Below are positions 1-43,937 of a stretch of 64,000 nucleotides of DNA, one piece after another. The position numbers were made by a program, and so were the translations under genes. Every line of letters begins with the position of its first letter. Positions within the stretch are counted from its first letter, which is position 1. The notes beneath the pieces were generated by a model. The model did no database searches, had not been told where the DNA came from, and was given only the letters and a program-made list of their open reading frames with translations. The stretch is taken from NCBI GenBank assembly GCA_046563655.1, contig CM102287.1, positions 2,914,001-2,978,000 of the forward strand, read 5' to 3'. The stretch comes from Yuukianura sp. NJ FZ-2021 (taxonomy: Eukaryota).

Positions 1-2625
<2,625 letters not shown>

Positions 2626-2889: not shown

Positions 2890-4020
2890 ATTTTTGGCAT
2901 TTTTTGCAAAGTAAGCGAAATGATGTTTTGCAATTACAACTAAGAAATGGCGAGAAAATTACAATTTTGTTTTGTTTTTAGAATTTTCTGATTCTAGGAA
3001 TTGTAAAGTGTAGCTTTGGATTTGGTAGAATTGAGATAGGGGATTGTACGGTGCGAAGAGGTGGATAGGAGAACTGCCTCTGCTTTGCTTTTGTATGGGA
3101 AGTCCGCCAGCGGGAAAAAGTTGAAGAAGGCGAGGAGCCTTTCTGCAGCGTACGATCCCCGCATAGCTCCGGACAGTTTCACAGCGGAACCTTTAACTTC
3201 CCCGTGTAAAATCTTTTCGAAAAAATTCAAAAATTCATAATAATTCAAAAATTCATATCTCAGCAACAGAATGCGCTGGAGTGAAAATCTCTTCACAACT
3301 AAATTCCGAATCACCTAAAGTATTTTTTTTAAATTCTAAAAATTAAAAAACTACCAAAAAGTTGCCAATCGATTTTTGAAAAAAATGCATGGTTATAATA
3401 GTCCGTGTTTTTTTTTTATTTCATTTCATGAAACTTACCAGTAACTCCTTCCGTTTATAGATAAAAAAGAAAATTCGCATTTTTTGAAGACAGGGACAAG
3501 GGTAGTCTGAGAGTGCGGACATCCGGAAAAAACAAAAAAGGCGCCAGGTGTAGTTCGGGAGTGCGAACCTTTGGCGGAACAGCAAAACGCAAAAAAGAGT
3601 TACCAGTTACTCCTTTCCTTTCTAGATAAAAGGAAAATTCGCATTTTTTGCAAAAACAGAAAAGGGTCGGGGATAGTTTCGGAGTGCGGACATCCGGAGT
3701 AGACAAAGAAGCGCCAGATGTAGTTCTGGAGTGCGGACCTCCGGCGGAACAACAAAATGCAAAAAAGAGTTACCTGTTACTCCTTTCGTTTCCATATAAA
3801 AGGAAACCGCACCAAATTGTTGTCATTCACTCTCGTCTTGGTCCTGGAAGGGGGCGGTTCCCATTTTCCAACTCCAAAAGAGTAGGATTCCGTAGAATCT
3901 TACTCCTCCAAAGAGTAACCAGTAACTCCTTCCTTTTTCATATAAAAGCGAAGCTCCCCAAATTATTCCCGTTCAATCTCGTTTTTGTCATGGAAGGGAA
4001 CAGAACGGTTTCATTTTGGA
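2890..4020. repeat. Dispersed unclassified repeat, copy 1 (about 1.1 kb, internal tandem units of about 165 bp; ends approximate)
   Basis: Clearly homologous by eye to 36745-37220 and 38606-39025. Recurrent AAAAGAGTTACCAGTTACTCCTT-like motif. Tandem units at about 3435-3600 and 3600-3770. Confidence 0.8.
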
Positions 4021-21143: not shown

Positions 21144-24003
21144 TTACTCCTGCCCTGGTGTTGTTGCCACTTCCATAAGCGCTGCTAAGCATTCGCCAAA
21201 TTCCTCAATCAGGATTCTCTCTTGCTCTTCCTCATTCAAATGCTGGCGTTCCGCGGCTTCTCCTTTGGCCAAAAGCAGGTCAACGGTGGAGGTCACCACA
21301 TCAAGTGAAACTGAACCTTCAGGATATCTGTAAATAATATAAACATTTATATTATATAGAATTAATTATTATATTTTATACAACTACTAAATACAACTAT
21401 TGACTCACCTGAAGACGACAGCAGGTACAGTACATCCAATGTTATTTTGAGTCGACACGTCTTGCCACTGCGCCTTCATTTTATTTCTCACTTGATTCTG
21501 CTGCTGAACTCGAACTTCGGCGGCTTCAGCCAAATCTTTGAGCGTTTGCCGATGAGACGTTCCAGCTCCAGCGAAGTGCTGCTCAACTCCGACTCCATTC
21601 GGCAGTCCACTCGGTATGTTTTCAATACAGTTTTTACATCCAGTACATTTGCAGATTCCGGAACAAAAGATTTTGGCTTCGTAGCACTCGCAGTAGTTTT
21701 TGAGACAGCCGGATCTCCGACAGTTGCAACCTTTGTTGTGTCTCCGTTCATGCGGTTCGCCCGTTTGCGAACTTTTGCCGATCTTCGGACGGAATGCAAC
21801 CGGATTTCTCTCCAGAACGAGCTTGATGGCCTACAAAGCAATTCAAAGGGATTGGATTATTTTTTTTAATTCGAAAGATGATTGGATGCTGGCAGTATTT
21901 TGTTACCTTCTGTCGATCTTCTTCGTGTGTGAGGTTGTTGAAACATGAATTGCAGTTACACAAGTGGCAAAACTCGCCGTTTGCAAAACAGTCGCAGTAG
22001 AGTTTCAAGCATTGTGATTTGGTACAGTTGCAAGGCTTCCGCGGTCTCATGCCATTCGGCTCTAAAAGAGATCGAAATGAGTCGAATCCAACTTGTTGAT
22101 GAGCAGCAAAGTTCTGTTGAAGTGTCAGCATCGCTTGTTCGGCTGCTGCCTGTTGAGAGTCCAGTGCAGGTCGAATGGCTATTGGTGTCGTTCCATGTTC
22201 TTGTTTTATCTGAGATCCAAAATTTTTGATTTTTCATTTTCAACTTTGTTTTTACAAGTTTCTTTTTCTTTTTTTTTTCTTTTTTGTAGTTCCCTACCAT
22301 GTAATTTTGAAGCATCATCAATCCAGAATTTTTAAGACTGCTCAAATCCGTTCCGGGTGGCAATGTGACCAGGGTTTGACCAGAACCCGATTTTTGGACA
22401 AACTTTGGCTTCATGGGAGAAATTGGAATTTTATTCAACGGAGCAATGTTCGGCTTTGTATTTTGGATAACACGGAGATATTTGACCTAAAAAGTGAAAC
22501 AATTCAAGTGAAATCAGCGATTCAGCGATCAAACCAGGAAGAAAGTGTTTAGTTAGCTCATTTAACGAATACTTACCTTGTTGTCACTTCCGGTCACTTG
22601 TAGCAAGTTACCTGTAGAACCTGGCTGGAAATTAAAAAAAAAATGAAAAAATTGAAAAATTGAAGTTCTTCATTTCAAAAGGATGACAAAATTTTTGAGA
22701 TGAGAAAAAAAGTTGCTTACAGCGATGGAGACTGGAGTTAAAACATTTCCCTGCTTGAGCAGAATTCGTCTTGGTGCTGGGCTTGATGTGCTGCCATCTT
22801 GCAGCATGTCACCAGCAGGTACTGGTGCTGGCAGTATTTTGAGTGGACTTTTGGATTTTCCTTTCTGTGAAGAAGCAACTAAAATGCTTCGTTTGCCCGA
22901 AGGACCGCTGAGTGTAATCGTGTTGCCTCCGCCTTGCAATAATCCTTGAAGTTGTGCTGCGTCTAGCATCACTTGCTGTCCATTTCCATCGTTTGAAGAA
23001 TTTGCGAGCACAAACTTGACCTTTTTAGGAATTTCAAAAAGTTTAGTACTTAAAGTTGATTACTTTAGAAAACTGTTTTCAAAAATCTTCCTTCAAAATT
23101 TTGATTTTATGATTACATGTTGTTGTTTCGTAGACTTTCTTGGTTTGGGTGCTGGTGGAGTTGGTGTGTGGGTAGTAGTGGCTAAACTTGAAATTGGCTG
23201 AAGCGTTCCAGTGACTGGATTGAACACTGAATCTTGAACGCTGAGAAACTGGGTCATGTCGGAACTTGTAGTTTCATTGAAACTGGCATTGGACAGACCA
23301 AAGTGATCGTCATCTTCTTCTTCATGTGGAACTGATGTTACTACTTCCTCAATACTTCCAGTTGCTATCATCGATTCGTCAATATGCTCCTCCTCCTCAT
23401 GTCCAATCTGGATTTCATCCTGGAAAATCATAAAAATGATTAAATATTTCGATTTTGAAACGTTTTGATTTTGAACTTCTTCTTTTTTTTTCAAGTGAGG
23501 ATTACATCGACATGTTCCAAATCCATGTGCTCGTGCTCCTCATGCTGCATCTCATGTTGCCCTTCTTCCTCTTCTTCATCCGGTATTCCACTGATCAAGT
23601 TTCCCTCGGAATCTACTGTATGAAGAGTAATCAGTTCACGAAATTCTTCACTAGAAACGTGATGTTCATCGTCCATCATTTCTTGTGTCTCTAGTAGGCG
23701 ATGCTCTTCACTGTCCAGAATGTCATTCACGATTTGTTGTGTCTCAGCATCTTCAGTAGAGTGCATTACAAGTTCTTCATGCACCTCTTCCACTTCTCCT
23801 CCACCTTCCAGCACTTGTTGAGCTAATTGATCTTGGTAGCTCTGCATCTGTTCAGCAGTCAACACGATTGTGTTTCCATGCTCATCTTGGGCAGTGAAGT
23901 GATGCATGAGCTGTGTATCCTGATCTTCATATTCTTGCACCTCTTCATGTTCTTCCATGATATGCTCCTGTTCCTCTTGAATCTCTTCATGATGATCGCC
24001 CAT
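21144..24003 (-). CDS. LIN54: LIN54 / Mip120 tesmin-like CXC protein (exons 24003-23506, 23419-23117, 23020-22721, 22624-22577, 22486-22298, 22209-21907, 21830-21409, 21327-21144)
   Basis: Two CXC domains, [27 protein letters not shown] and [26 protein letters not shown], linked by [13 protein letters not shown]-terminal [12 protein letters not shown]. Confidence 0.93.
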
Positions 24004-24290
24004 TGTTAAGTCCTGAGCTTAGCCTTTCTCGATTCAACAATGGCAATGACCTGGAAAGAGAACAAACAGCTTTCAGAATTCCTGTATAGTTAGCAGTACA
24101 TCCATAACTTATGCGGTTCCATGCCATTGGTGCGAATGAATTGGTGCGAAGCGCAATGGTGCGAATGAATTGGTGCGAAACCAATTGGTGCGAATGCTGC
24201 ATTGGTGCGAATGATTTATTGGTGCGAAAGAGCATAAGTGCGAAACCAATTGGTGCGAATCCTAAAATGGTGCGAAAGACTAATTGGTAG

Positions 24291-24783
24291 TGTAATGAAG
24301 TGGCCTTATTTTAGAAATGAAAGGTCAAGACACTACTGTTTTGTGTTTCTGCTTGGTGCAGAAGGAAAATAACTTTTATTCAATTAAAGTTTAGTGAAAG
24401 GGGATTGACCTCGCAGGGTCAAGTTGGGTTGAACTCAGTCAGAGTTTGAGCAGAGTTCAGTTGGAATTGAAAGTTAGAAGAAGAATGATGGAGGGCATTG
24501 GCAACTGCTCCTTTTATAGGGCCTTACGAGTACCAATGACCCCTTGACATTTAAATGAGGAGTAACTCGTAACTCCTCTGATGCTAATGAAAACAATGGC
24601 AATGAACTCAGTGAGTTCAAGAAACTGGATTTGAACTAGAAAAATCTATTTTTAGAGTAAAAAGTAACTTTGTACTTTAAGTTATGTGTTTTGTGCAAAC
24701 ACAGTTTGCACAAAGACAAAAGACAAAAGTTATGAAATGGAAATGATCTGTATTTAACAGGAGATTGACCTTATTTCATTACA
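24291..24783 (-). repeat. 3' LTR
   Basis: No differences seen by eye versus 30630-31122. Minus-strand TATAAAA at 24518-24512 and AATAAA at 24380-24375. Confidence 0.96.
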
Positions 24784-25524
24784 GTCCTCCTTCGTTAGAC
24801 GGAAGACTCTCCTGAGTTTTCTTAGGCTGAATGAGACATCGATTTGCTTTGTGACCCGGGAGGTTACAGATCCAGCAGTGACGTGGCCCGCGAGGTTTTG
24901 GTCTCGGCTTCGGGATCATCGCAGAAATTGTGGCCTTGATGTCCCGTGGGTCAGTGACGATGACAATTGGTCTGCCAGCGGAGCGTTGTTGTTGTTGTTC
25001 TTGTTGTTTTGGTCGTCTCAGCGGCGGCGGAAGTCCTGTGCTCATCCGAGCGTAGGTTCTCGGCTGACGTTCCATTTGTCGGAGGTTTTGGAGCCGTTCC
25101 ATTTGTCGGAGGTTTTGGAGAGGAGATTCGGACGTCATCGGCACGGGTCGTTGAACCTTCGGGATTCTCCATGCAGAAAAGTTGATTGCACCATTTGGAG
25201 GGTTGTCGTTACGGAGTAGCGGCACCGTAGGAGTCTCCGATGTTACCGATGATGTAGAATTGATAGAAATGGTTGGTGAAATGGCTCTCCGTTGAACTTG
25301 TAGGTTTTGGAATTGATCTAAAATAAAAATAAAAGAATAATTAGAAAAATAAGTATAATTTAGAAGTTGAGGGGTATGTTATGGGAATGGGATGGACAGA
25401 TGATGTTGCATGAAGTCAAAGGTTGAAAGGTCATTGCACTTTACTTACCAGCGACTTCTTCGTCAACACGAAGCAATGCTTCTTCTTGCTCGAGGTCCAT
25501 GTCCTCAATATTCCCATTGGCCAT
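24779..25524 (-). CDS. Extra spliced ORF3 of the Gypsy element (exons 25524-25449, 25317-24779; about 204 aa) with a CCHC zinc knuckle
   Basis: Donor G|GTAAGT at 25448; branch-like CTAAT, long pyrimidine tract and TTTTAG acceptor at 25318. Splicing keeps the frame: MANGNIEDMDLEQEEALLRVDEEVA-D-QFQNLQVQRR...CWICNLPGHKANRC...EGGL*. Confidence 0.7.
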
Positions 25525-28500
25525 AACGATCTGGTTGTCTGGTGGTTCGAGTTGACCTTCTGAGTTGTAGTGGTGACGGTTGGTTGACCTCCGGTAGACT
25601 TTCGGACAGAGTTCCCTCGTCTTCGAGTTCTGATGCAGGACTGACAGGGTCACCGTCATCCTGACCTGTATTTATAGGGGATCTGAACTGGTCACTACCA
25701 CTGTCACTTGCACTATCCGAGTCAGTGCCACTGAACTTGTTTGAATGTGCCGATGAACTTTTATCTAATTTAGCACTAGTTTGCGTAGCAGATGAACTTG
25801 AATTTGACCTGATTTGACTATTTGCACTTGAACTGATCTTTGCATGATCAGCTGTGTGATGTGAAGTGGAGGAGTGTGATTCAGCTACAGTTTGCACTTT
25901 CCTCCCCCTCCTTACTTTAGCACTAATGGGAGTTCCAGGGGACCCATTGTTGCGTTTTGACTGAAGATTTTTCTCTTTCTGTTTGACATGATCAGTGAAG
26001 CTACTTTCGCTTTCACTGTCGGAGGAAGGCATAAACTGAGAGTTGTATCGCTCTATGTCCCTTACATGAACAATGACCTTTTTAGAGCGACTATTCATCT
26101 TTTTGATTTCGTAATTAACATTACTAGTCTGCCTAATAATTTCATAAGGGCCGTCCTTTTGAGCAATCAATGCTTTTGAAAGGCCTTTCTTTAAAATTGG
26201 TTTTGATCTCAAAACCAAATCACCTACTTTAAATTGATGTTCTTTTCGAGTCTTATTGACTCGAACTTTATTTTTCTCATGATTTTTTCTGGAATTTAGC
26301 TGAGCTTTGTGCCAATCCTCTTTTAATTTTTCCAAATCATGTTCTTCATCAGAATCAAAGTTTGGAAGTTGGAGATCAATTGGCAAAGTAGCTTCTCTGC
26401 CAAATAGTAAATAAAATGGGGAATACTCGGTTGAACAGTGTTTTTGGACATTATAAGAAAATGTCGCTCTGTCCAAACACGCGTCCCAATTTTGCTGATT
26501 TTCCTGAACAGTTTTTGCAATACCCTTTTTAACTGTTTTATTACAGCGTTCCGTCATGCCATTTGCGGCTGGGTGATACGGAGCTGTAAATCTAAGTTTA
26601 AAACTAAATTCCTTAGCACACGCTTTGACCAAATTGGAAGTGAATTGTCTTCCTCGATCAATCACAAATTCCTTTGGCAAGGAATGCTTGAAAATAATTT
26701 TGTTTTTAATGGCTTCCACGGTCGCTTCTGCTGTAGCTGCCGGAACTGCTAGTGTTTCAGCGTATCTAGTGAAATGATCAATAAAAACAATTGCGTATTT
26801 GTTTCCTGATTCTGATTTCACAAAAGGGCCAATGTAGTCAATCCCTACTCTTTCGAAGGGTGTGCTGACCTCATCGAAGCTTTGCATAGGACCATATTCA
26901 TGACCTACACGTTTCCTAAATTTTTGGCAAATTGGACAACCAAGAATGTATTTTCTTGTGTCCCTGTACATTCCTACCCAATGGAAACGACTTCTTACTA
27001 AATCCCATGTTTTAGTAATCCCCGAGTGACCTGCTAGGTCACCAACATGCAGAGAATCCAAAACAATTTTCCTAAGGCATTTTGGAAGTACGATTTTCCA
27101 CTGATGTCCAGATGGCGCGAAATTTGGAAAAAGCAAAATTCCATCTTGTAAACTATAATGTTCCAATTGTTTAACATTAGGTTTAGGAATATTACTTATC
27201 CCTTTTTCTTCAGATTCAATGTACAAAATGATCGACTTAAGGAAATTGTCAGATCTTTGTTTCACTTTAATTTCATTTTTTGAAAATAATTCAGGGACTC
27301 CATCCAGAACTAGGACTTCTGAGCTGTCCATTGTTTCTGGTGGGTCAACTGGGTATCTTGACAAGGGGTCAACGTCATTGGCTGTTCTCCCTGGTCTGTG
27401 GACAATTGTCATATCTTGATTTTGCAAGGTTATTGCCCACCTTGCAAGCCTACTATTCACGTCTTTGACAGAAAACAGCCATTTAAGGGCGTTATGGTCA
27501 GTGTACACAGTATATTTAGTACCATAAATGTAAGGTCTAAATTTTTTGACTGCGTAAACAACTGCCAGGCATTCCTGTTCTGTCGCGGAATATTTTCGCT
27601 CTGCGTCCGTCATGCTTCGACTTGCATAAGAAATGACGCAAGGTTTTTCATTTTGTATTTGGACGAGGGTTGCCCCAAGCCCATACCCACTACTGTCACA
27701 GTGTACTTCTGTAGGAACATTGTCCATGGGGTAAGCCAGAATTGGACTGTTAATTAAATAGTTTTTTAAAGTCCGAAAAGCTAAGTCCTGCTTTTCTCCC
27801 CATTCAAATTTTTGATTTTTCTTCAATAGAGAATTGAGTGGAATTGCAATTCTTCCGTAATTTTGAATGAATCTTCGGTAGTATCCACACATTCCCAAAA
27901 ATGATTTCACATCCGTTTGATTTTTTGGAATTGGGAACTTTTCGATCGCAACTGTCTTGTTTGGGTCCACCTGAATTCCATGTTCAGATATGACGTGGCC
28001 CAAATAGTTGAGTCTGTTGGTTCCAAACACACATTTACTCAATTTCAGGGTTAGACCGGCTTCTTTAAGTCGGTTTAGAACCGTAACCAGCCTATATTTG
28101 TGCTCGTCAAAGGTTCTACCCCAAATTACAAGGTCATCTAAGTACACAAGTACAATGTTCCATTTCAAATTGAGTAAAACCAAGTCCATTAAGTATTGGA
28201 AGCTTGATGGAGCATTGCATAAACCCATAGGCAACCTTTTGAACTGGAATAACCCATCAGGAGTAATAAACGCAGTTTTTCTTTGTCTTTTGGATCCATT
28301 TCAATTTGATAGAATCCAGACAATAGATCTAAAACTGTGAAATATTTGGCTCCAGAGAGTCTGTCCAAGGCGTCATCCATTCTAGGCAATGGATATGAGT
28401 TTTTCTTGGTAATTGCATTAAGTTTCCTATAGTCAATGACCAGTCTTGAACTACCGTCCTTTTTAGGTACCAGTATGACAGGAGACGACCATGGGGAAAT

Positions 28501-29739
28501 GGATTCCTCAATGATCTCACTTTCCAGTAACTTGTTTATTTTTTCCTTAATTTTACTTCTTTGAGGGTATGAGACCCTATAGGGATGACTACGTATAGGT
28601 TGACTTTCGCCTGTGTCAATTTTATGACGAACTAGGCTAGTTTTTCCTAAATCCGTTTCATCCTCAGCAAAGAGCATAGGAAATTGGTTAATTACTTTTG
28701 TCATTTCAGTCTTTTCATCGTTTGTCAGGTTGTCTCCTAACTTTGGGGTGAAGTTCCCTAACTTGCCTTCTTCTGTTTTGATGGTCTCGCCATCTTCAGT
28801 AAGATAGTACAAGTTTTTATTAGGAGGACAAATTTCACCATAACAAATTGTTGTGCCTTTTGCTAAGGTCACAGCAAAGTTATTTAAATTGGTGAGCCAT
28901 ATTTCGGTACGGCTGTCCCTGACTGTCGAGTAGACATACGGTTGGAGTAAGGCATGAGTCTCATTAAGTTTCTTGTTTGGATTTAAAATAACTGATCCAG
29001 AAATGATGAAATCAGACTCAACTGTAATTCTTGAACACATTTTTGGTTCCAGTCGGACTGTTTTTGTCAAATTGAATTTGTTTAACTGAGGCTCATTTTC
29101 CTCAGCCTTGGGCAAATCCAATGGTGACTCTTCATCAATTATTGGAAATTTGTTTTTGTCCATGTTTCTTGTAGTCCAATCAGTCCCTAACAGCATTTGG
29201 GGTTTCAATCCCACCATTATATGGAATCCCCAGACAGTGAGTACATGGTTGTGGTAGAACCGTAGTTCAACAATTTCATCAACCGCTGTTACACTGTTTG
29301 CTGTGTTGACCATGATTGGGCAAATCTTGTACCTCTTATGAATGAATTCTTTTAATTCATTCAACCGTTCTAAGCCAATGCTGCTGAAGTTGGCACCTTC
29401 ATCGACTTGAACTCTATACGTTTTGTTACCAAAAAGTAGTTCGGTAAAGACTTTCGGTCCATACCTCCATTTTCTGAAAGGTACGGGGACTTTTATCCCT
29501 TCCACGGAAGTTTCAGGGATCGAGTCGGATGCTACATTAATTGAATTAATTGAATTCAAATTTTTCTTTACTTTACTAGCGTATGTTTCACTAGTAGTTT
29601 GTTTATTTTTGTTTTCTGAAAAATTTTTATTTTCAGTAGTGAGGGCATTTTGCCCTTGCTTGCATTTGTTTACTTTTTGTAAAGAGAAGTTATACGCTGT
29701 TTTTATTTGTGGGTGAGCGTAAGCACCCGATTCATTTAG
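25505..29739 (-). CDS. pol: Gypsy pol (PR, RT, RNase H, integrase), reached by -1 frameshift from gag; one apparent 1-nt deletion at 28276-28280
   Basis: PR-like VDEGANFS; RT SPWSSPVILVPKKDG, LDLLSGFYQI, PMGLCNAP, YLDD; RNase H CDSSGYGLGA; integrase HHCC, IDYIGP, DRGRQF, NGMTERCN, GPY. Confidence 0.95.
25639..25676 (-). promoter_or_regulatory. Candidate internal core promoter for ORF3 (TATA plus Inr) inside the pol tail
   Basis: Minus-strand TATAAATA at 25676-25669 and TCAGTC (arthropod Inr consensus TCAKTY) at 25644-25639. The first downstream ATG is 25524. Confidence 0.4.
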
Positions 29740-29745
29740 TTTTTT
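29693..29745 (-). promoter_or_regulatory. -1 programmed ribosomal frameshift signal (A AAA AAC plus H-type pseudoknot)
   Basis: Slippery heptamer 29745-29739 immediately before the gag TAA. Stem 1 GGGTG/CACCC, stem 2 TACGCT/AGCGTA. The -1 frame is open into pol. Confidence 0.85.
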
Positions 29746-30614
29746 GTAGTTTTAATTGTTTCAGTGACTTCTACATTGTCAACTGAAGTAAAAGAAGTGC
29801 TTCCAGATTTGTTACCATCTTTGTGCCAACAGTCATCGTACACGTGACCTGGCTTTTTACAACCTGTGCAGAACTTTCGTTTCTTTTGTTCAAAGTTTCT
29901 GCCAGTTTCTGTTGCAGAGGTAAGAGTAGAAGACTCTTTTTGCTTATTTGCATTTGTATTTTCTGCAGGTGATTTGAATTTGACCTGCGAATTTTGACCT
30001 TTTTTGTCATTGTTGAAGTTAGGCTTTTCTAACTTCCTAAGTTTTTGTAAAAACTCGGCTGGAGTTTTGGGGTCAATCAAGGTCATCATGTTTTTTACAG
30101 AATATGGGAGACCTTTGATTAATTTTTCAACTTGTTTTTCTTCTGACATGTCTGGGTCAATGACCGACAGGCATGCCAGTTTCTTGGCGACATACTCAGA
30201 ATGTGAGTCGCAAGTTTGTAGAAAAATAGTTTTCAGTTTCCTCTTTGCGTCAGATTTGACCTGTTCGGGGTCATAGAATGACCTGATCGCAATTTTTAAC
30301 TCTTGCCATTTGGAATTGGCATTTGCAGGGGTCAAATCCCTGATAATTTTTGTTTGTGACCATCGCCACCATTCTAGTGCTTCACCTTCCATCAAAAGAT
30401 GGAAGTTTAGGATCAGCGAATTGCTGTCCAGAGCACCCGATGCAATTAGAGCATCGCACCTTAAGGTCAACAGGTCAACGTTCGTCTTGCCATCAAAAAG
30501 AGGCACCGAACGTACCACAGCCTTTAGGTCAAATGGTTTGGTCAACGCCTGTGCGGACCCGTTAGGAGTAGGCAAAGGAATTGAGGTAGAGGTCGAGGTC
30601 ATGTTTTGGTTCAT
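29736..30614 (-). CDS. gag: Gypsy gag with a CCHC zinc knuckle
   Basis: VPLFDG, LMEGEALEWW, LIKGLP, CTGCKKPGHVYDDC. First ATG at 30614, just downstream of the PBS. Confidence 0.92.
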   Translation of the reverse strand: MNQNMTSTSTSIPLPTPNGSAQALTKPFDLKAVVRSVPLFDGKTNVDLLTLRCDALIASGALDSNSLILNFHLLMEGEALEWWRWSQTKIIRDLTPANANSKWQELKIAIRSFYDPEQVKSDAKRKLKTIFLQTCDSHSEYVAKKLACLSVIDPDMSEEKQVEKLIKGLPYSVKNMMTLIDPKTPAEFLQKLRKLEKPNFNNDKKGQNSQVKFKSPAENTNANKQKESSTLTSATETGRNFEQKKRKFCTGCKKPGHVYDDCWHKDGNKSGSTSFTSVDNVEVTETIKTTKN

Positions 30615-30629
30615 AGGCTCGTCCACCAA

Positions 30630-31122
30630 TGTAATGAAGTGGCCTTATTTTAGAAATGAAAGGTCAAGACACTACTGTTTTGTGTTTCTGCTTGGTGCAG
30701 AAGGAAAATAACTTTTATTCAATTAAAGTTTAGTGAAAGGGGATTGACCTCGCAGGGTCAAGTTGGGTTGAACTCAGTCAGAGTTTGAGCAGAGTTCAGT
30801 TGGAATTGAAAGTTAGAAGAAGAATGATGGAGGGCATTGGCAACTGCTCCTTTTATAGGGCCTTACGAGTACCAATGACCCCTTGACATTTAAATGAGGA
30901 GTAACTCGTAACTCCTCTGATGCTAATGAAAACAATGGCAATGAACTCAGTGAGTTCAAGAAACTGGATTTGAACTAGAAAAATCTATTTTTAGAGTAAA
31001 AAGTAACTTTGTACTTTAAGTTATGTGTTTTGTGCAAACACAGTTTGCACAAAGACAAAAGACAAAAGTTATGAAATGGAAATGATCTGTATTTAACAGG
31101 AGATTGACCTTATTTCATTACA
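30630..31122 (-). repeat. 5' LTR
   Basis: Direct repeat of 24291-24783, followed on the minus strand by PBS-like TTGGTGGACG. Confidence 0.96.
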
Positions 31123-32714
31123 GTAGGAAAGATTATTTGGCTTATGCTTATATTCGGTAAAACGGCGCTGCGATTTTTACGAATAAAAAAATCCTTTGAA
31201 ATCAATCTTGAAGCGTGAAGACCAACGCAACGAGGATTGATAAACTGTTGGTATTATGCTAACCAAACCTAACGCGCGCCTTCGGCGCGGAGATATAACA
31301 AAGAACAATATTTGGTATACATAGGTTTTACTTGAAATCCTCATTCTACATGTGAAAGTCACATTGTTTATTACAATGTGACGTAGTCTTAATTAATCAA
31401 TGCTACACAGAAGGAGGTGTGGCTGCCAAAAACGGATTTCAGATACCGAATATAAGCCAACTAATCTTTCGCACCAATTTAGGATTCGCACCAATTAATC
31501 TTTCGCACCAATTGGTTTCGCACTTATGCTCTTTCGCACCAATAAATCATTCGCACCAATGCAGCATTCGCACCAATTGGTTTCGCACCAATTCATTCGC
31601 ACCATTGCGCTTCGCACCAATTCATTCGCACCATTGCGCTTCGCACCAATTCATTCGCACCAATGGCGTGCTACCAACTTATGCAGCATAAGTTATGCTT
31701 ATAATTACTAAGTTTAGATTAACGTTTCGTTAGAGTAACGTTAGATTAACCACAAATCATCTTTTAGTTTATGTTTACCACATCCAGATCAATTGGTTTA
31801 GAAGGTAATTGAACTGGAAGCTGCGCATAGTCCAACCAGAAGACTCTCCTCCCAAAATCACCACAGCTAAACCCCACCAACAGCAAGACTGCCTATTCAT
31901 CGTTGATTTGACTACTGTACCTCAGTAAGGTAACGTTAACTATTAGATTAATCGATTAACTTGACGTTAACAAAAATACTGCAATGCTAAAAACGTAAAC
32001 AATGAACTTATGATTACGAATCATACTTCATACGAGACTCCTAACATCCTTATGTTATGCTATTCCCTTTCCCTTTGAAAATCGTCCGGGAGGGAACGGC
32101 TGATTTAAAATTTTGAATTTTTGAAAGTAGCAAGGCGGCGGCAGCGGCAGAATTGGCAAATTAAAAATGATTTCTTTTTGGGTACGAAAACAAGGGATTT
32201 GAGGTCATCGCAAGGAAATTTCTTACCTTTTGAGTTGACCTCTGTCGATGACACGGATTAATTTTTAGCCTAATTTTTTTAGGTATGGACCCAGTGGAGG
32301 CAATGTGGAGGTTTTCCTGTGCGTAGATTGGTGAGGTTTCGACCCCTCAAGCAACGGAAAACGGAGGGAAGCCATAGCATCAACAAAGCTTAACAGCGGG
32401 CCGCTCAAAGGTTACGCAATCACAAACATACCCGTAAAAGGGGTTTACTAATTTAGTTTATCGTGCAAAAGATATTCACAATTTTAAGTTACTTAGCGTG
32501 TACTAACAAGTGCTAATTCACAGTTCCTTTTTCTGTGCGAATTAATTGACTCGATTTTTAAAGCGTCATCCCAACAAATGTGTTAGGTTGTTAGGTTAGG
32601 TTGTGTTAGGTCTGATTTAAGTTCCATATATTGTGCTTGTGATAAACACACAAATCTTAGGTGTTTTGGAATTTGCAGTTTTGCTTGTACTATAACTATA
32701 ATTTTCATCCTAAA

Positions 32715-35247: not shown

Positions 35248-36483
<1,236 letters not shown>

Positions 36484-36744: not shown

Positions 36745-39025
36745 AAATTTTTGCATCTTAGTAAGCAAAATTATGGTTTGCATTGCAATTAAGAAATGGC
36801 GAAAAAGTTGCAATTTTTTAGAATTTTGTCATCTGAGGAGTCGTAAAGTTTTAAGGTTGTTTGTGGCAGAATTGAGATAGGATATTATACGGAGCGAAGA
36901 GGTGGATAGGAGAGCTGCCTCTGCCATGCTTTTGTATGAGAAGTTCCGCCAGCGGAAAAAAAAATTGAGCTAGGCGAGGAGCCTTTCTGGACCGTACGAT
37001 CCCCGCATAGCTCCGGACAGTTTTCTGGCAGAACCTTTAACTTCACAGTGTAAAATCTCTCCCAAAAAATTCGAAAATTCATAAAATTAAAAAATTTATA
37101 TCTCAGCAACAGAATGCGTTGGAGAGAAAATGTCTTCAGAATCGCCTAAAGTATTTTTTTTTAAATTTTGAAAGTTCAAAAACAGCCAAAAAGTTTGCGA
37201 TCGATTCTTGAAAAAAATGGACTAGGAGAAGTAAGTTTTTTTTTCTAAAGACGAAATTTTGAAAATTAATTTTTGCATCAAATTTATTTGACATGATGTT
37301 GTTTTGACATGTGAGCCGGCCGATGGCAATCTGCCAACCAATCAGGAATCTGCAAAAGAGTAACACGTTACTCCAAAAGTATGGAGGGAGTTCGGTGGCA
37401 AAATTATTTTAAAGTTTCGCGCGTTAAAACATGTTCCGCCAATTAAAAACAAACGTTTTCGCGTATTACTTTAATGCGCGAAAACTTTTTTTAATTGCAG
37501 TAATTTTAATTGCAGAAAAATTTTAACGCGCGAAAAAGTCTAAGCGTACGCGCGAAAAAGTCTAAGCGTACGCGCGAAAAAGTCTAAGCGTACGTTAACG
37601 GAACGTACGCTTAGGAAACGTACGCTTAGAAAACGTACGCTTAGGGAACGTACGCTTAGAATACTAACGCTTAGAATGCATGTCCAATAGAAATCACATT
37701 GCCAGAACTGATCAGAATTAGTATTCTGTAAATTATTATTTATTGTCTATTATTATTTATTATTTATTATCTATTGTAAACTATAAAACACTTCTTTTCT
37801 CATATGCTTTGTAAGGTTTTCAAAAATGTGTAGCCCCATACAGTGTTGCTGGATATCCACTTTTTTGACATTTCCTCCACGGCTGGATATCCACAGGAAG
37901 AAATGGACTAATCCAAAGGGGTGGATCTTTGCCCGCGGGGTTTGAAATACTTAAATCCAAACCACTTAAGCAATTCAAAATACCGTACAAAAACAAAGAA
38001 AATGTCGTTTTTGTAAGAGTTTTAAATAAATACTTAATTTTAGCAATAAAAGAAACTCTTTTTGCTCTTTTTCGTCCAGCCGTGGACGAAATGTCAAAAA
38101 AGTGGATATCCAGCAACACTGTATGGGGCTACACATTTTTGAAAACCTTACAAAGCATATGAGAAAAGAAGTGTTTTATAGTTTACAATAGATAATAAAT
38201 AATAAATAATAATAGACAATAAATAATAATTTACAGAATACTAATTCTGATCAGTTCTGGCAATGTGATTTCTATTGGACATGCATTCTAAGCGTTAGTA
38301 TTCTAAGCGTACGTTCCCTAAGCGTACGTTTTCTAAGCGTACGTTTCCTAAGCGTACGTTCCGTTAACGTACGCTTAGACTTTTTCGCGCGTACGCTTAG
38401 ACTTTTTCGCGCGTACGCTTAGACTTTTTCGCGCGTACGCTTAGACTTTTTCGCGCGTTAAAATTTTTCTGCAATTAAAATTACTGCAATTAAAAAAAGT
38501 TTTCGCGCATTAAAGTAATACGCGAAAACGTTTGTTTTTAATTGGCGGAACATGTTTTAACGCGCGAAACTTTAAAATAATTTTGCCACCGAACTCCCTC
38601 CATACAAAAGAGTTACCAGCTACTCCTTTATTTTCTAGATTAAAAAAAATTCACATTTTTGCAAAAAAACAGAAAAACGGTCGGGGGTAGTTTAGGAGTG
38701 CGGACATCCGGAGTGGACAAACGAGGCGTCAGGAGTAGTTCCAGAGTGCGGACCTCCGGCGTAACAGCAAAACACAAAAAAGAGTTACCTGTTACTCCTT
38801 TCGTTTCCATATAAAAGGAAACCGTACCAAATTGTTCTCATTCACTCTCGTCTTGGTCCTGGAAGGGGGCGGTTCCCATTTTCCAACTCCAAAAGAGTAG
38901 GATTCCGTCGGATCTTACTCCTCAAAAAAGTAACAAGTAACTCCTTCCTTTTTCATATACTAAAAGGAAAACTCATCAAATTATTCTCGTTCTCTCGTCT
39001 TTGCGTAGGAAAGGAATAAAACAAT
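36745..39025. repeat. Dispersed repeat, copy 2 (homologous to 2890-4020), split by the foldback element; ends approximate
   Basis: 36745-37220 matches 2890-3390 and 38606-39025 matches 3590-4010, e.g. the shared TTCACTCTCGTCTTGGTCCTGGAAGGGGGCGGTTCCCATTTTCCAACTCCAAAAGAGTAGGATTCCGT. Confidence 0.82.
37379..38605. mobile_element. Foldback-type non-autonomous DNA element with very long TIRs
   Basis: Arms 37379-37887 (509 bp) and 38075-38605 (531 bp) are near-perfect reverse complements around a 187-bp spacer. They differ by one extra 22-bp unit CGCGAAAAAGTCTAAGCGTACG and one mismatch seen. TSD AAAA (or CAAAAG). Confidence 0.92.
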
Positions 39026-42130: not shown

Positions 42131-42302
42131 TTTAAAGCTGACCGTGTTGACCTTTGAGCGAAAACTCCAGAGTAAGTTCCAGCGATGCTGTTCAAATGAA
42201 AACTGACATGAGTTTGTATTTGGTGTTAGTGACAGTGACGGGTGACAAATTAGATGTTGCATAAATCATACCTTTCAGCTGCCTATGCGTTGATCGCTGA
42301 TC

Positions 42303-43937
42303 ATGCAAAGACAATTTCCTGTCAAACTTCTCCGGAAGTTTAGTGGGACACCTTCCAGGAAAATTAGAACAATCCAGCATATCCTCGTAGTCGTGATGAC
42401 GATGCTGACAACTTTCCTTTGCGTGTGGATTATTTCTGGACAACTTCGGAAATTCCGGACGCTTCAAAGTCGAAGTGGCCAAGGATACAGGACTTCCGTA
42501 GCGATTAATCATGATTACTCAAGATTAATTGATGAAGATGAAGATGGGCCAGTTTGGACTCGAATTAGTGATTCAGTGTACACATACAGTGCGTTCCTGG
42601 ACATGCGCAGTATCTCTCGAAAAGTAAGCTTGTCTTCACAGCTAATTCCAATAAGAGTCATCGGTCTCTGGAAACTTCCAAACAAAATGGACATGTTAAG
42701 ATCAACTCCTCTAAAGTGGTATCATATCAAAGAGGAGGCTGACCTGGAAGGATTTTTCTGTAAGGTCATCCACACAAGCGGGTCAAAGGTCACGGTGTCC
42801 GTCCAAGGTCAAAGCTTGACAAGGTCAATTTTTGAAGAGGGCCTGAAAATCTTCGCGGGAACTTTTTTTAATTGCTACATCAATGGTTCAATTGCTCAAA
42901 ATTTGGTGGACGGTGAAACCCATGGGTCAACTATCGTCGCAATTTACCCCACAGAGATACAAAATTACCCCATGAAGGGAATCCGGGTCAAAATAATCCA
43001 CGATAATTCTTCAAGGTCAACAAGGTCAACCGGGTCCACTCCGAAGTTGACACTTTGTGTTCGGCCCATTTTCGGACCAATTTCTGTACCCCACGTGACA
43101 CAATTTTTGGCTTTTTACAATGTCATGGGCGTTGAAGAATTCAACTTTTACGATTTCGGAATTCCTCCAGCCGTTAAACAGGAATTTCGGAAATGGCGGA
43201 GGCTCGAAAATTCAAAAAATTCAAAATTGAAAATTTTTGTGAAAAGATGGAACTTGCCTACAGGAGACTGGAATGAGTTATGGGATTACGGATCGCTGGC
43301 AGCGCTTAACGATTGTATCTACACAAACATGGACAGAGGTCACTGGGTCATCGTCGTTGACCTTGACGAGTTCATGGTTCCCCAAAACAGCGCTGGAAAC
43401 GTAACGCTGCAGCGATTACTTACGCAAGACGCTGGAACAGGAGCAGTAGCTGGATATGCCAAGTACGCTCAACTCCTGGTCCGAAACACTTTTTTCTGTA
43501 AAGAATTTTGTCCTGAAAGGAATCAATTTAATCGATTAACGTCGATTAATCACCTCAACTTGCCAATTTTGAATTGTTTAATTAGAACCAAGAGAATTTG
43601 GAATGTAAAGTTAAGGAGTAAGTTTATAGTGAATCCATACCGAGTAGCACAAGTAGGACATCATGGAGTTACCAGATTTTGGGAAAAGAAACCTTTCGAA
43701 AAGATTTCTGGAAATAAAATTTCCAGATTTACTACAAACTCTTACATTTTTCCAGAAAATATTTTGATTTTGAATCATTATCGAACGTGTTCTCAAATTT
43801 CAACTCCACTTCAACCCATTTTAGGCACAAAAATTCAAGTTGATACAACTATACTGAAATACAAGGAACTGATCATGTCAAAGGTCAAAGGTCATGACAC
43901 TTTAAGCGTAATTTGGCACATTGGAGACAAATTTTAG
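42303..43937 (+). CDS. Glycosyltransferase family 92 (DUF23) type II membrane protein, intronless CDS
   Basis: N-terminal TM anchor; YTYSAFLD, LTLCVRPIFG, GVEEFNFYD, AALNDCIY, VDLDEFMVP (DxD), RSKFIVNP, GHH, LNHYR. Confidence 0.85.
   Translation: MQRQFPVKLLRKFSGTPSRKIRTIQHILVVVMTMLTTFLCVWIISGQLRKFRTLQSRSGQGYRTSVAINHDYSRLIDEDEDGPVWTRISDSVYTYSAFLDMRSISRKVSLSSQLIPIRVIGLWKLPNKMDMLRSTPLKWYHIKEEADLEGFFCKVIHTSGSKVTVSVQGQSLTRSIFEEGLKIFAGTFFNCYINGSIAQNLVDGETHGSTIVAIYPTEIQNYPMKGIRVKIIHDNSSRSTRSTGSTPKLTLCVRPIFGPISVPHVTQFLAFYNVMGVEEFNFYDFGIPPAVKQEFRKWRRLENSKNSKLKIFVKRWNLPTGDWNELWDYGSLAALNDCIYTNMDRGHWVIVVDLDEFMVPQNSAGNVTLQRLLTQDAGTGAVAGYAKYAQLLVRNTFFCKEFCPERNQFNRLTSINHLNLPILNCLIRTKRIWNVKLRSKFIVNPYRVAQVGHHGVTRFWEKKPFEKISGNKISRFTTNSYIFPENILILNHYRTCSQISTPLQPILGTKIQVDTTILKYKELIMSKVKGHDTLSVIWHIGDKF

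What the first reader, a model, noticed from the sequence alone, without database searches (positions are those of the whole stretch)
24779..25676. Gypsy element carries a spliced third gene encoding a second zinc-knuckle protein, possibly with its own promoter
Seen: between pol and the 3' LTR is a 131-nt textbook intron (25448-25318: GTAAGT donor, CTAAT, pyrimidine tract, TTTTAG). Removing it fuses an acidic leader (ATG 25524, overlapping the last codons of pol) in frame to a Pro/Arg/Gln-rich ORF ending in CWICNLPGHKANRC. The ORF runs through the PPT and takes its TAA from the first bases of the LTR. TATAAATA and TCAGTC lie upstream inside the integrase tail, with no ATG between the Inr and 25524. 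There is an internal 27-nt duplication (LQNLRQMER x2). Established: the usual third ORF in Gypsy elements is env (signal peptide and TM, both absent here), and sense introns should be purged by reverse transcription unless retained in the genomic RNA. Inference: an accessory nucleic-acid-binding gene expressed from a subgenomic mRNA, e.g. an RNA export, packaging or anti-silencing factor, with regulated intron retention.
Basis: partly seen in the sequence, partly recalled or inferred. Interest (0 to 1): 0.85.

Follow-up and report, generated by a model that had tools for sequence, protein, structure and literature searches.

The report
Extra zinc-knuckle gene in a Gypsy retrotransposon
A young Gypsy-type jumping gene carries, after its polymerase gene, a small extra gene with its own likely intron that encodes a basic RNA-binding-type zinc-knuckle protein, which resembles the rare accessory genes known from a few other retrotransposons but has not yet been shown to be expressed.

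Summary
The element is a Ty3/gypsy LTR retrotransposon on the minus strand (24291-31124), with identical LTRs and a CTAC target duplication. A 199-codon open frame lies between the pol stop (25505) and the 3' LTR. It is rarely this long by chance: 6 of 5000 dinucleotide shuffles. It contains a C-X2-C-X4-H-X4-C knuckle.

The proposed 131-nt intron joins the best-scoring donor and the best-scoring acceptor of the whole element. It is G-poor and T-rich like host introns. It fuses an ATG-headed acidic exon in frame to the ORF, giving 204 aa with pI 10.1 and no TM segment.

In variant copies in public DNA contigs, the listed indels fall in the intron. Of 9 listed substitutions in exon 2, 6 are synonymous. 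This supports coding constraint.

Not shown: no RNA run was listed, so splicing, the internal TATA/Inr promoter and function remain inference. No homologue of the ORF was found anywhere.

Non-env and spliced ORF3s are already known (Cer1 CERV, rotifer ORF3s, plant aORFs). I therefore rate this a new variant of a known kind, of moderate interest.

The parts
24291..31124 (-). Complete Ty3/gypsy LTR retrotransposon (6834 bp) flanked by a CTAC target-site duplication (24287-24290 and 31123-31126)
   Evidence: It is the only copy in the window.
30630..31122 (-). 5' LTR (TG..CA). TATAAAAG starts at 30857, and the A of the Inr-like TCATTC lies 32 nt downstream of the first T of the TATA box. The PBS-like TGGTGG... 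follows one base after the LTR, from 30628
29736..30614 (-). gag, with a Retrotrans_gag domain and one CCHC knuckle. It ends at an A AAA AAC heptamer followed by TAA
   Evidence: PF03732, E 2e-08
25505..29751 (-). pol (RT, RNase H, integrase, then a Ser-rich tail). It reads in two frames because the RT domain is interrupted by a frameshift near 28270-28280
   Evidence: The tail-end motif is shared with relatives.
25639..25676 (-). Candidate internal core promoter inside the pol tail: TATAAATA (25676-25669) and TCAGTC (25644-25639), with the A at 25642, 34 nt from the first T of the TATA box
   Evidence: Motif only; no transcription-start evidence.
25449..25524 (-). ORF3 exon 1: ATG in a G-3/G+4 context, acidic leader (10 D+E and 1 K+R in the first 26 residues). 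It overlaps the last 6 codons of pol in another frame. A second in-frame ATG is at 25500
25318..25448 (-). Candidate spliceosomal intron, 131 nt, phase 1: GTAAGT donor, CTAAT about 23 nt before the acceptor, T-rich tract, TTTTAG. GC is 30.5% and G is 7%
   Evidence: Indels in variant copies are, table 4.
24779..25317 (-). ORF3 exon 2: a Pro/Arg/Gln-rich basic region, the 27-nt duplication (25068-25120), a (CAA)n Gln run, the CCHC knuckle, and a stop in the LTR
24291..24783 (-). 3' LTR. It supplies the ORF3 stop codon, the 3' UTR and AATAAA (24380)

Best explanation
ORF3 is a genuine, family-specific accessory gene of this Ty3/gypsy element. It is probably made from a 3'-coterminal mRNA from which the 131-nt intron (25448-25318) is removed. 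The mRNA ends at the LTR poly(A) signal.

The product has 204 residues and is largely disordered. It has a short acidic N-terminus, a strongly basic Pro/Arg/Gln-rich body (pI 11.5) and one nucleocapsid-type CCHC zinc knuckle.

I infer that it binds nucleic acid and acts on the element's own RNA after transcription. Its role would resemble Rev or Cer1 CERV (export, stabilisation or packaging of unspliced genomic RNA) rather than env (cell entry).

The transcript may start at the internal TATA/Inr pair in the pol tail (A at 25642).

Shown: the anatomy, the frame, the quality of the splice signals, and signs of coding constraint.

Inferred: splicing, the promoter, RNA binding and the role.
For: Open frame:
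- The full 199-codon frame was reached in only 6 of 5000 dinucleotide shuffles.

Coding constraint in variant copies (public DNA contigs, 4 runs, 2 samples):
- 6 of the 9 listed substitutions in exon 2 are synonymous in the ORF3 frame. The binomial P is 0.009 given 24.6% synonymous sites.
- The long antisense frame has 1 of 9 synonymous.

Intron:
- The donor CTG|GTAAGT is the best donor in the element and the only GTAAGT.
- The acceptor ranks 1 of 174 YAG sites.
- The two sites lie 131 nt apart in the right order and restore the frame to an ATG-headed exon.
- The interval has 30.5% GC and 7% G, against about 50% GC in both exons.
- It resembles introns of a host gene in the same window, which are 60-300 nt and include GTAAGT...TTTTTTAG.
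- All four indels listed between 25300 and 25460 in variant copies lie in the intron, at 25324, 25369, 25388 and 25391. No indel is listed in exon 1 or exon 2 (table 4; 23 rows were not shown).

Protein:
- The knuckle fits C-X2-C-X4-H-X4-C with W after the first Cys and G before the His.
- The only 3 PDB sequence matches at E up to 10 are retroviral nucleocapsid knuckles.
- There is no TM segment, and the pI is 10.1.

Promoter:
- The TATA-to-Inr spacing is 34 nt, against 32 nt in the LTR's own promoter. The leader is free of ATG.

Precedent:
- Cer1 CERV is a spliced accessory protein needed for genomic RNA export (PMC10309623).
Against: - No expression data of any kind bears on this.
- No homologue of ORF3 was found in four kinds of search. 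Conservation beyond closely related copies is therefore untested. pol relatives at 40-57% identity have no detectable ORF3 counterpart among database proteins.
- Pfam zf-CCHC does not reach even E 10. It fails likewise for the element's own gag knuckle.
- The PDB matches have E values of 1-3, which is not significant.
- The T-poor composition inflates open frames; the mean longest frame in shuffles is 99 codons.
- The substitution test rests on only 9 listed sites from a table that hides 155 rows.
- No intron-less copy was seen in DNA contigs (table 5). Such copies might be expected if full-length RNA were efficiently spliced.
- The single-sequence structure model has low confidence (pLDDT 55.5) and shows only two helices.
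- This copy has a frameshifted RT, so it may itself be inactive.
Confidence: 0.45

Rival explanations
1. ORF3 is real but is expressed the retroviral way. The LTR-driven full-length transcript is spliced from a donor in or near gag to the strong acceptor at 25318. This gives a subgenomic mRNA whose protein begins with gag codons, as in Cer1 CERV or insect gypsy env. The internal TATA/Inr pair and the ATG at 25524 would then be incidental.
For: - The acceptor is the strongest in the element.
- A gag donor, AAG|GTGAAG at 30385, lies 229 nt after the gag ATG. It is in phase 1 and would therefore join in frame.
- CERV shares its N-terminus with GAG and is spliced from the full-length RNA (PMC10309623, section 9).
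- Rotifer ORF3s are said to be expressed typically from spliced messages (PMC5408684, passage).
Against: - The gag donor scores 6.5, against 8.5 for the 25448 donor. One in three donors is in phase by chance.
- This model does not explain why a perfect GTAAGT, an intron-like composition and an in-frame ATG exon sit immediately upstream of the acceptor.
Confidence: 0.2
2. ORF3 is coding but is not spliced. A shorter protein of 119 residues starts at the first in-frame Met of the open frame (ATG 25138) on genomic or read-through RNA. The splice-like signals are not used.
For: The knuckle and the basic region lie entirely downstream of ATG 25138. No splice evidence exists.
Against: - The frame stays open 60 codons upstream of that Met and continues in frame into exon 1 after intron removal.
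- The one listed substitution in that upstream part (25229) is synonymous.
- On genomic RNA such a start would lie about 5.5 kb from the 5' end, after the gag and pol reading frames.
Confidence: 0.1
3. ORF3 is not a functional gene. It is either a by-product of T-poor composition or a decaying captured fragment, for example of a host or foreign CCHC protein or gag. It is carried along because the region must hold the PPT.
For: - It is an orphan with no homologues.
- Its composition is low-complexity, with a recent 27-nt duplication and a Gln-codon microsatellite.
- Several other frames in the region are also fairly open.
- The structure model has low confidence.
Against: - The open frame was reached in 6 of 5000 shuffles.
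- Synonymous substitutions are in excess specifically in this frame.
- Indels are confined to the intron in the listed rows.
- The knuckle motif is intact.
Confidence: 0.15

Closest known systems
CERV of Cer1 (Caenorhabditis elegans Ty3/gypsy element), PMC10309623
   Same: [quoted passage not shown] It is made from a spliced mRNA, has no homologues outside its narrow host group, and contains a Cys-rich putative zinc-binding element. It acts on the element's own genomic RNA in nuclear export.
   Different: CERV has 517 aa and 5 exons. Its N-terminus is shared with gag, it has folded H, M and G domains, and its finger is a possible C4 type. The protein here has 204 aa and 2 exons, its own ATG at the end of pol, is mostly disordered, and has one CCHC knuckle. 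No sequence relationship was detected; no such hit appeared.
Retroviral and retrotransposon nucleocapsid (NC) CCHC zinc knuckle
   Same: The C-X2-C-X4-H-X4-C spacing is exact, with an aromatic residue after Cys1, Gly before His, and basic flanks. The only PDB sequence matches are NC knuckles.
   Different: The knuckle is not part of gag. It is encoded by a separate gene after pol and shows no similarity to the element's own gag knuckle region. The profile matches are not significant.
Non-env ORF3s and additional ORFs of LTR retrotransposons: rotifer Vesta/Juno/TelKA ORF3s (PMC5408684), plant aORFs (PMC7264820), maize Grande accessory gene
   Same: [quoted passage not shown] The Grande gene is reported to be transcribed from its own promoter and to encode a nuclear protein; I saw only that paper's title, in reference lists.
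   Different: Those ORFs are enzymes (DEDDy, GDSL), TM or coiled-coil proteins, or plant-specific and often antisense ORFs. In the passages I read, none is described as a CCHC-knuckle protein with a private short intron.
env of insect errantiviruses (gypsy) and sORF1/sORF2 of the Drosophila MDG1 group (bioRxiv 10.1101/2025.03.14.642691)
   Same: These are accessory genes of arthropod Ty3/gypsy elements.
   Different: env has a signal peptide and a TM segment, and neither is present here. sORF1 and sORF2 lie upstream of gag and are expressed without splicing.

Membership tests
Ty3/gypsy (Metaviridae) LTR retrotransposon | Direct LTRs ending TG..CA, a short target-site duplication, a PBS next to the 5' LTR, and a PPT next to the 3' LTR | tested here: met
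   The LTRs are 100% identical over 495 nt. The TSD is CTAC. TGGTGG... follows one base after the 5' LTR, and GAAGGAGGA lies two bases before the 3' LTR. I did not determine which tRNA primes.
Ty3/gypsy (Metaviridae) LTR retrotransposon | gag followed by pol, with the domain order RT - RNase H - integrase | tested here: met
   Pfam gives Retrotrans_gag, then RVT_1, RT_RNaseH, Integrase_H2C2, rve and Integrase_p58_C in that order. No protease profile matched at E up to 0.01. RVT_1 is split by a frameshift.
Retroviral-type CCHC zinc knuckle (Pfam zf-CCHC) | C-X2-C-X4-H-X4-C spacing | tested here: met
   Read directly from the translation at residues 173-186 of the 204-aa product.
Retroviral-type CCHC zinc knuckle (Pfam zf-CCHC) | Significant profile or sequence match | tested here: inconclusive
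   There was no zf-CCHC hit even at E up to 10, and the gag knuckle of the same element fails in the same way. The 3 PDB matches are all NC knuckles, at E 1.1-2.9. The Atlas gave zf-CCHC clusters at score 0.85-0.86, below its 0.9 lead level.
Retroviral or errantiviral env | Signal peptide and transmembrane anchor | tested here: not met
   The highest 19-residue Kyte-Doolittle mean is 0.82. The protein is hydrophilic with pI 10.1.
Cer1 CERV-like export factor | Sequence or fold relationship to CERV (H, M and G domains) | tested here: not met
   HMMER against 1.84 billion representatives gave 4 weak hits, all CCHC repeats or repetitive proteins, and none CERV-like. The structure model has only two short helices. 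I did not fetch CERV itself for a direct comparison.
Cer1 CERV-like export factor | Made from a spliced mRNA and required for export of unspliced genomic RNA | not testable with these tools
   No RNA run was listed. This needs an experiment.
Spliceosomal (GT-AG) intron | Consensus donor, branch-like site, pyrimidine tract and acceptor; length and composition like host introns; frame restored | tested here: met
   Host introns are shown.
Spliceosomal (GT-AG) intron | Junction observed in RNA | not testable with these tools
   All five listed runs were DNA contigs.
TATA/Inr RNA polymerase II core promoter | A TATA box about 30 nt upstream of an Inr | tested here: met
   The spacing is 34 nt from the first T to the A, against 32 nt in the LTR promoter. 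The pattern occurs 5 times against 0.75 expected in the window.
TATA/Inr RNA polymerase II core promoter | Transcription starts mapped at the Inr | not testable with these tools
   No RNA data were available.

The most novel reading that the evidence does not exclude
This Ty3/gypsy family, whose named pol relatives are from chelicerates, has evolved a gene layout like that of a complex retrovirus. A separate transcription unit with its own TATA/Inr promoter and its own intron is nested in the 3' end of the element. It encodes a Rev/CERV-like trans-acting RNA-binding protein built from an NC-type zinc knuckle. The protein would control export, stability or packaging of the unspliced genomic RNA, or counter host silencing.
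Probability: 0.2. Interest if true: 0.75.

Novelty: new variant of a known kind. Interest (0 to 1): 0.5.

Why it matters
Accessory genes are what separate complex retroviruses from simple ones. In LTR retrotransposons they are rarely annotated, and only a handful have been studied; Cer1 CERV is the clearest case.

If this ORF3 is expressed as modelled, it would be a second, independent example of a Ty3/gypsy element encoding a small trans-acting nucleic-acid-binding regulator. It would come from a different animal lineage, use a different protein design (an NC-type knuckle on a disordered basic chain) and perhaps use an internal promoter.

It would also offer a simple case for asking how an intron survives repeated reverse transcription. 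If ORF3 is not expressed, it is an ordinary orphan ORF in a young element.

Tried and rejected
RNA evidence:
- The look-up of sequencing runs listed 5 runs from 2 studies. All were DNA contigs and no RNA holder was listed.
- Laying 4 of the 5 runs showed no contig that joins across the intron. The only joints were at 26017-26106 and 26020-26214. Run X4 had no cover over 25363-25496. Contigs show presence, not absence.

Homologues of ORF3 exon 2 (178 aa):
- The word-indexed search of near-length proteins gave 0 hits.
- HMMER over 1.84 billion representatives gave 4 hits at E 1e-6 to 6e-6, all CCHC-repeat or repetitive proteins.
- The metagenome contig scan gave 0 of 594 candidate stretches.
- The viral contig scan gave 0 of 139 candidate stretches.
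- Pfam gave nothing at E up to 0.01, and only a DUF7011 hit at E 0.1.
- The ESM Atlas gave only sub-threshold leads, best 0.87.
- ORF3 against gag gave E 0.57. This rejects a recent duplication of the gag knuckle.

pol searches:
- The pol tail (residues 640-931) gave no hits in the word-indexed search.
- pol in the metagenome scan gave 12 loci at 26-47% identity. None has a CCHC motif downstream of pol; all 6 motifs found lie upstream, in gag-like frames.
- pol in the viral contig scan gave 0 of 4 candidates.

Other:
- No whole genome is held for this window, so other copies in the host could not be aligned.
- The structure prediction had pLDDT 55.5, too low for a fold search, so none was run.
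- Earlier-findings look-ups returned nothing.
- Rfam and tRNA scans of the window were empty.
- The antisense ORF 24758-25219 was rejected as coding: 1 of 9 substitutions is synonymous.

Literature:
- Three searches and the passages I read found no CCHC-knuckle ORF3 with its own intron. This is a limited search, and supplements were not read.
Full report
**The element.** The finding lies in a complete LTR retrotransposon on the minus strand, 24291-31124 (6834 bp).
- Its two LTRs match 100% over 495 nt. They begin TG and end CA, and are flanked by a duplicated CTAC.
- It is the only copy in the window.
- Pfam finds Retrotrans_gag in the first ORF. It then finds RVT_1, two RT-RNase H models, Integrase_H2C2, rve and the integrase C-terminal/SH3 models, in the Ty3/gypsy order.
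- gag carries one CCHC knuckle and ends at an A AAA AAC heptamer just before its TAA, with pol in the -1 frame.
- In this copy the RT domain is split between two frames by a frameshift near 28270-28280. Relatives have a continuous RT. This copy may therefore be defective, or the assembly may carry an error there.
- The pol relatives that carry source names are from a pseudoscorpion, spiders and ticks. The best identity is 57%, to unnamed contigs. The host is therefore probably a chelicerate or another arthropod; I did not pursue this further.
- The Ser-rich pol tail ends in a motif (RRSTR..R.P.RYG) shared with relatives at 40-57% identity. The pol stop at 25505 is thus the family's normal end, and what follows is extra.

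**Check of the observation.**
- pol stops at TGA 25507-25505.
- An ATG at 25524, in a G-3/G+4 context, opens a different frame.
- GTAAGT starts at 25448, CTAAT lies about 23 nt before the acceptor, and TTTTAG ends at 25318.
- Removing these 131 nt joins 76 nt of exon 1 in frame to the open frame 25317-24779. The product has 204 aa.
- The TAA (24781-24779) lies inside the LTR, which starts at 24783. The purine tract GAAGGAGGA is in the last codons.
- The knuckle CWICNLPGHKANRC is at residues 173-186, with 18 residues after it.
- TRF confirms the 27-nt duplication, 25068-25120.
- TATAAATA (25676-25669) and TCAGTC (25644-25639) are present, and the 118-nt leader has no ATG.
- No hydrophobic segment exists; the highest 19-residue hydropathy mean is 0.82.

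**Is it more than chance?**
- The region is T-poor (18% T), which favours open frames. Dinucleotide shuffles give a mean longest frame of 99 codons. The full 199-codon frame was reached in only 6 of 5000 shuffles.
- With a simple consensus score, the 25448 donor is the best of all GT sites in the element and the only GTAAGT. The 25318 acceptor ranks first of 174 YAG sites by pyrimidine tract.
- So the best donor and the best acceptor of a 6.8-kb element lie 131 nt apart in the right order. They bracket a segment of 30.5% GC and 7% G between exons of about 50% GC, and they restore a frame headed by an ATG. This is unlikely to be accidental.
- A host carboxyltransferase gene at the start of the window has GT-AG introns of roughly 60-300 nt. 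One reads GTAAGT...TTTTTTAG. The proposed intron therefore looks like a host intron.
- The TATA-N-Inr pattern occurs 5 times in the window against 0.75 expected. Two hits are the LTR promoters and two belong to another repeat family. The spacing is 34 nt here and 32 nt in the LTR.

**Evidence from other copies.** No whole genome is held, and no RNA run was listed. Four DNA runs from two samples were laid on 24291-26300.
- Variant copies exist at 80-99% likeness.
- In the tables shown, all four indels between 25300 and 25460 fall in the intron (+1 at 25324, -3 at 25369, +1 at 25388 or 25391). None is listed in either exon. 23 indel rows were not shown.
- Nine substitutions are listed in exon 2. 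Six are synonymous in the ORF3 frame, against 24.6% synonymous sites (binomial P 0.009). The other five frames have 1, 2, 1, 5 and 1 synonymous, and the long antisense ORF has 1. The frame with 5 of 9 is the antisense frame whose third codon positions coincide with those of ORF3, and it contains stops.
- This supports purifying selection on ORF3. It rests on few sites, and 155 substitution rows were hidden.
- No contig joins across the intron (table 5), so no intron-less DNA copy was seen. Contigs drop rare variants.
- One contig in run X2 leaves the stretch at 25254 and continues with RT-region sequence (table 7). I cannot explain this.

**The protein.**
- The first 26 residues are acidic (10 D+E, 1 K+R). 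The rest is strongly basic (28 K+R, pI 11.55) and rich in Pro, Arg and Gln.
- AlphaFold2 without an alignment gives pLDDT 55.5, with two helices (exon-2 residues 65-82 and 123-133) and otherwise coil.
- The knuckle has the retroviral spacing. The only three PDB sequence matches at E up to 10 are nucleocapsid knuckles, at E 1.1-2.9, which is not significant.
- Pfam does not call zf-CCHC, but it also fails on the gag knuckle of the same element.
- ORF3 is not a copy of gag (E 0.57).
- No homologue was found in any search.

**How it most likely works.** I commit to the following model, with confidence 0.45.
- A 3'-coterminal mRNA ends at the LTR AATAAA (24380). It loses the 131-nt intron and is translated from ATG 25524.
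- The product is a small nucleic-acid-binding accessory protein that acts on the element's own RNA.
- The transcript may begin at the internal TATA/Inr. I give that step about one chance in three.
- If it does, the subgenomic RNA lacks R-U5-PBS and cannot be reverse-transcribed. Its splicing would then not remove the intron from the lineage. This is inference.

The rivals are:
- Rival 1: retrovirus-style splicing from a gag donor to the same acceptor. One in-phase donor exists at 30385.
- Rival 2: an unspliced 119-aa product starting at ATG 25138.
- Rival 3: a non-functional orphan frame.

**Comparison with what is known.**
- ORF3s that are not env are established. A review passage warns that a downstream ORF3 need not be env and cites rotifer DEDDy and GDSL ORF3s (PMC5718144, passage).
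- The rotifer paper states that ORF3s typically are separate transcriptional units expressed from spliced messages (PMC5408684, passages).
- Plant aORFs are reviewed in PMC7264820 (passages). Its reference list includes a maize Grande accessory gene transcribed from its own promoter; I saw only the title.
- The closest functional analogue is Cer1 CERV (PMC10309623; abstract, passages and section 9 read). It is a 517-aa protein from a five-exon spliced mRNA, with an N-terminus shared with GAG and a possible C4 finger, and it is required for export of genomic RNA.
- The present ORF shares the position, the non-env nature, the orphan status and the likely splicing. It differs in size, exon structure, start codon, fold and finger type, and it is not a sequence relative.
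- The Drosophila MDG1-group sORF1 and sORF2 lie upstream of gag and are unspliced (bioRxiv 10.1101/2025.03.14.642691, abstract and section 7).
- In three literature searches I found no report of a CCHC-knuckle ORF3 with a private intron. The search was limited and no supplements were read.

**Verdict.** It is a new variant of a known kind. Interest is 0.5.

Noticed in passing
window 29736-29751 (minus strand): gag ends with the slippery heptamer A AAA AAC (29745-29739) directly before its TAA, and pol opens in the -1 frame. This is a textbook -1 ribosomal frameshift site.
   Followed up: partly
window 28270-28280 (minus strand): The RT domain (RVT_1) is split between two reading frames by a frameshift, although the LTRs are identical. 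Either this is a defective young copy or the assembly has an error in a homopolymer. Relatives have a continuous RT.
   Followed up: partly
window 25505-26050 (minus strand): The Ser-rich pol C-terminal tail has no detectable homologues as a whole. It does end in a short basic motif (RRSTR..R.P.RYG) shared with pol relatives at 40-57% identity. The ORF3 start codon is formed by the Tyr-Gly codons of that motif.
   Followed up: partly
window 24128-24288 and 31473-31633: The host sequences on the two sides of the insertion are 94% identical inverted copies, rich in a TTCGCACCAAT-like motif. The element seems to have landed inside a foldback or inverted-repeat element.
   Followed up: no
window 37379-37887 / 38075-38605; 2910-4000 / 36760-39016: There is a 531-bp inverted repeat (95.7%) and a dispersed repeat family (81-88%). 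The repeat family carries its own TATAAAAG...TCATTC pairs at 3795 and 38810. It may be another mobile element family.
   Followed up: no
table 7, run X2, place 25254: One contig follows the element from the pol tail through the intron and 64 nt into exon 2. It then continues with sequence identical to part of the RT region (the WGRTFDEH codons near 28110-28135). It could be a rearranged copy or an assembly-graph chimera.
   Followed up: no
window 24758-25219 (+ strand): A 153-codon antisense open frame overlaps ORF3. Only 1 of 9 listed variant substitutions is synonymous in it, so it is most likely a by-product of the base composition.
   Followed up: yes
window 19-2313 (+), 42294-43937 (+), 21408-22233 (-), 36076-36480 (+): Host genes surround the element. 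They include a multi-exon carboxyltransferase gene with short introns, an intron-less GT92 glycosyltransferase ORF of 547 aa, tesmin/CXC-domain exons and a NUDIX exon.
   Followed up: partly
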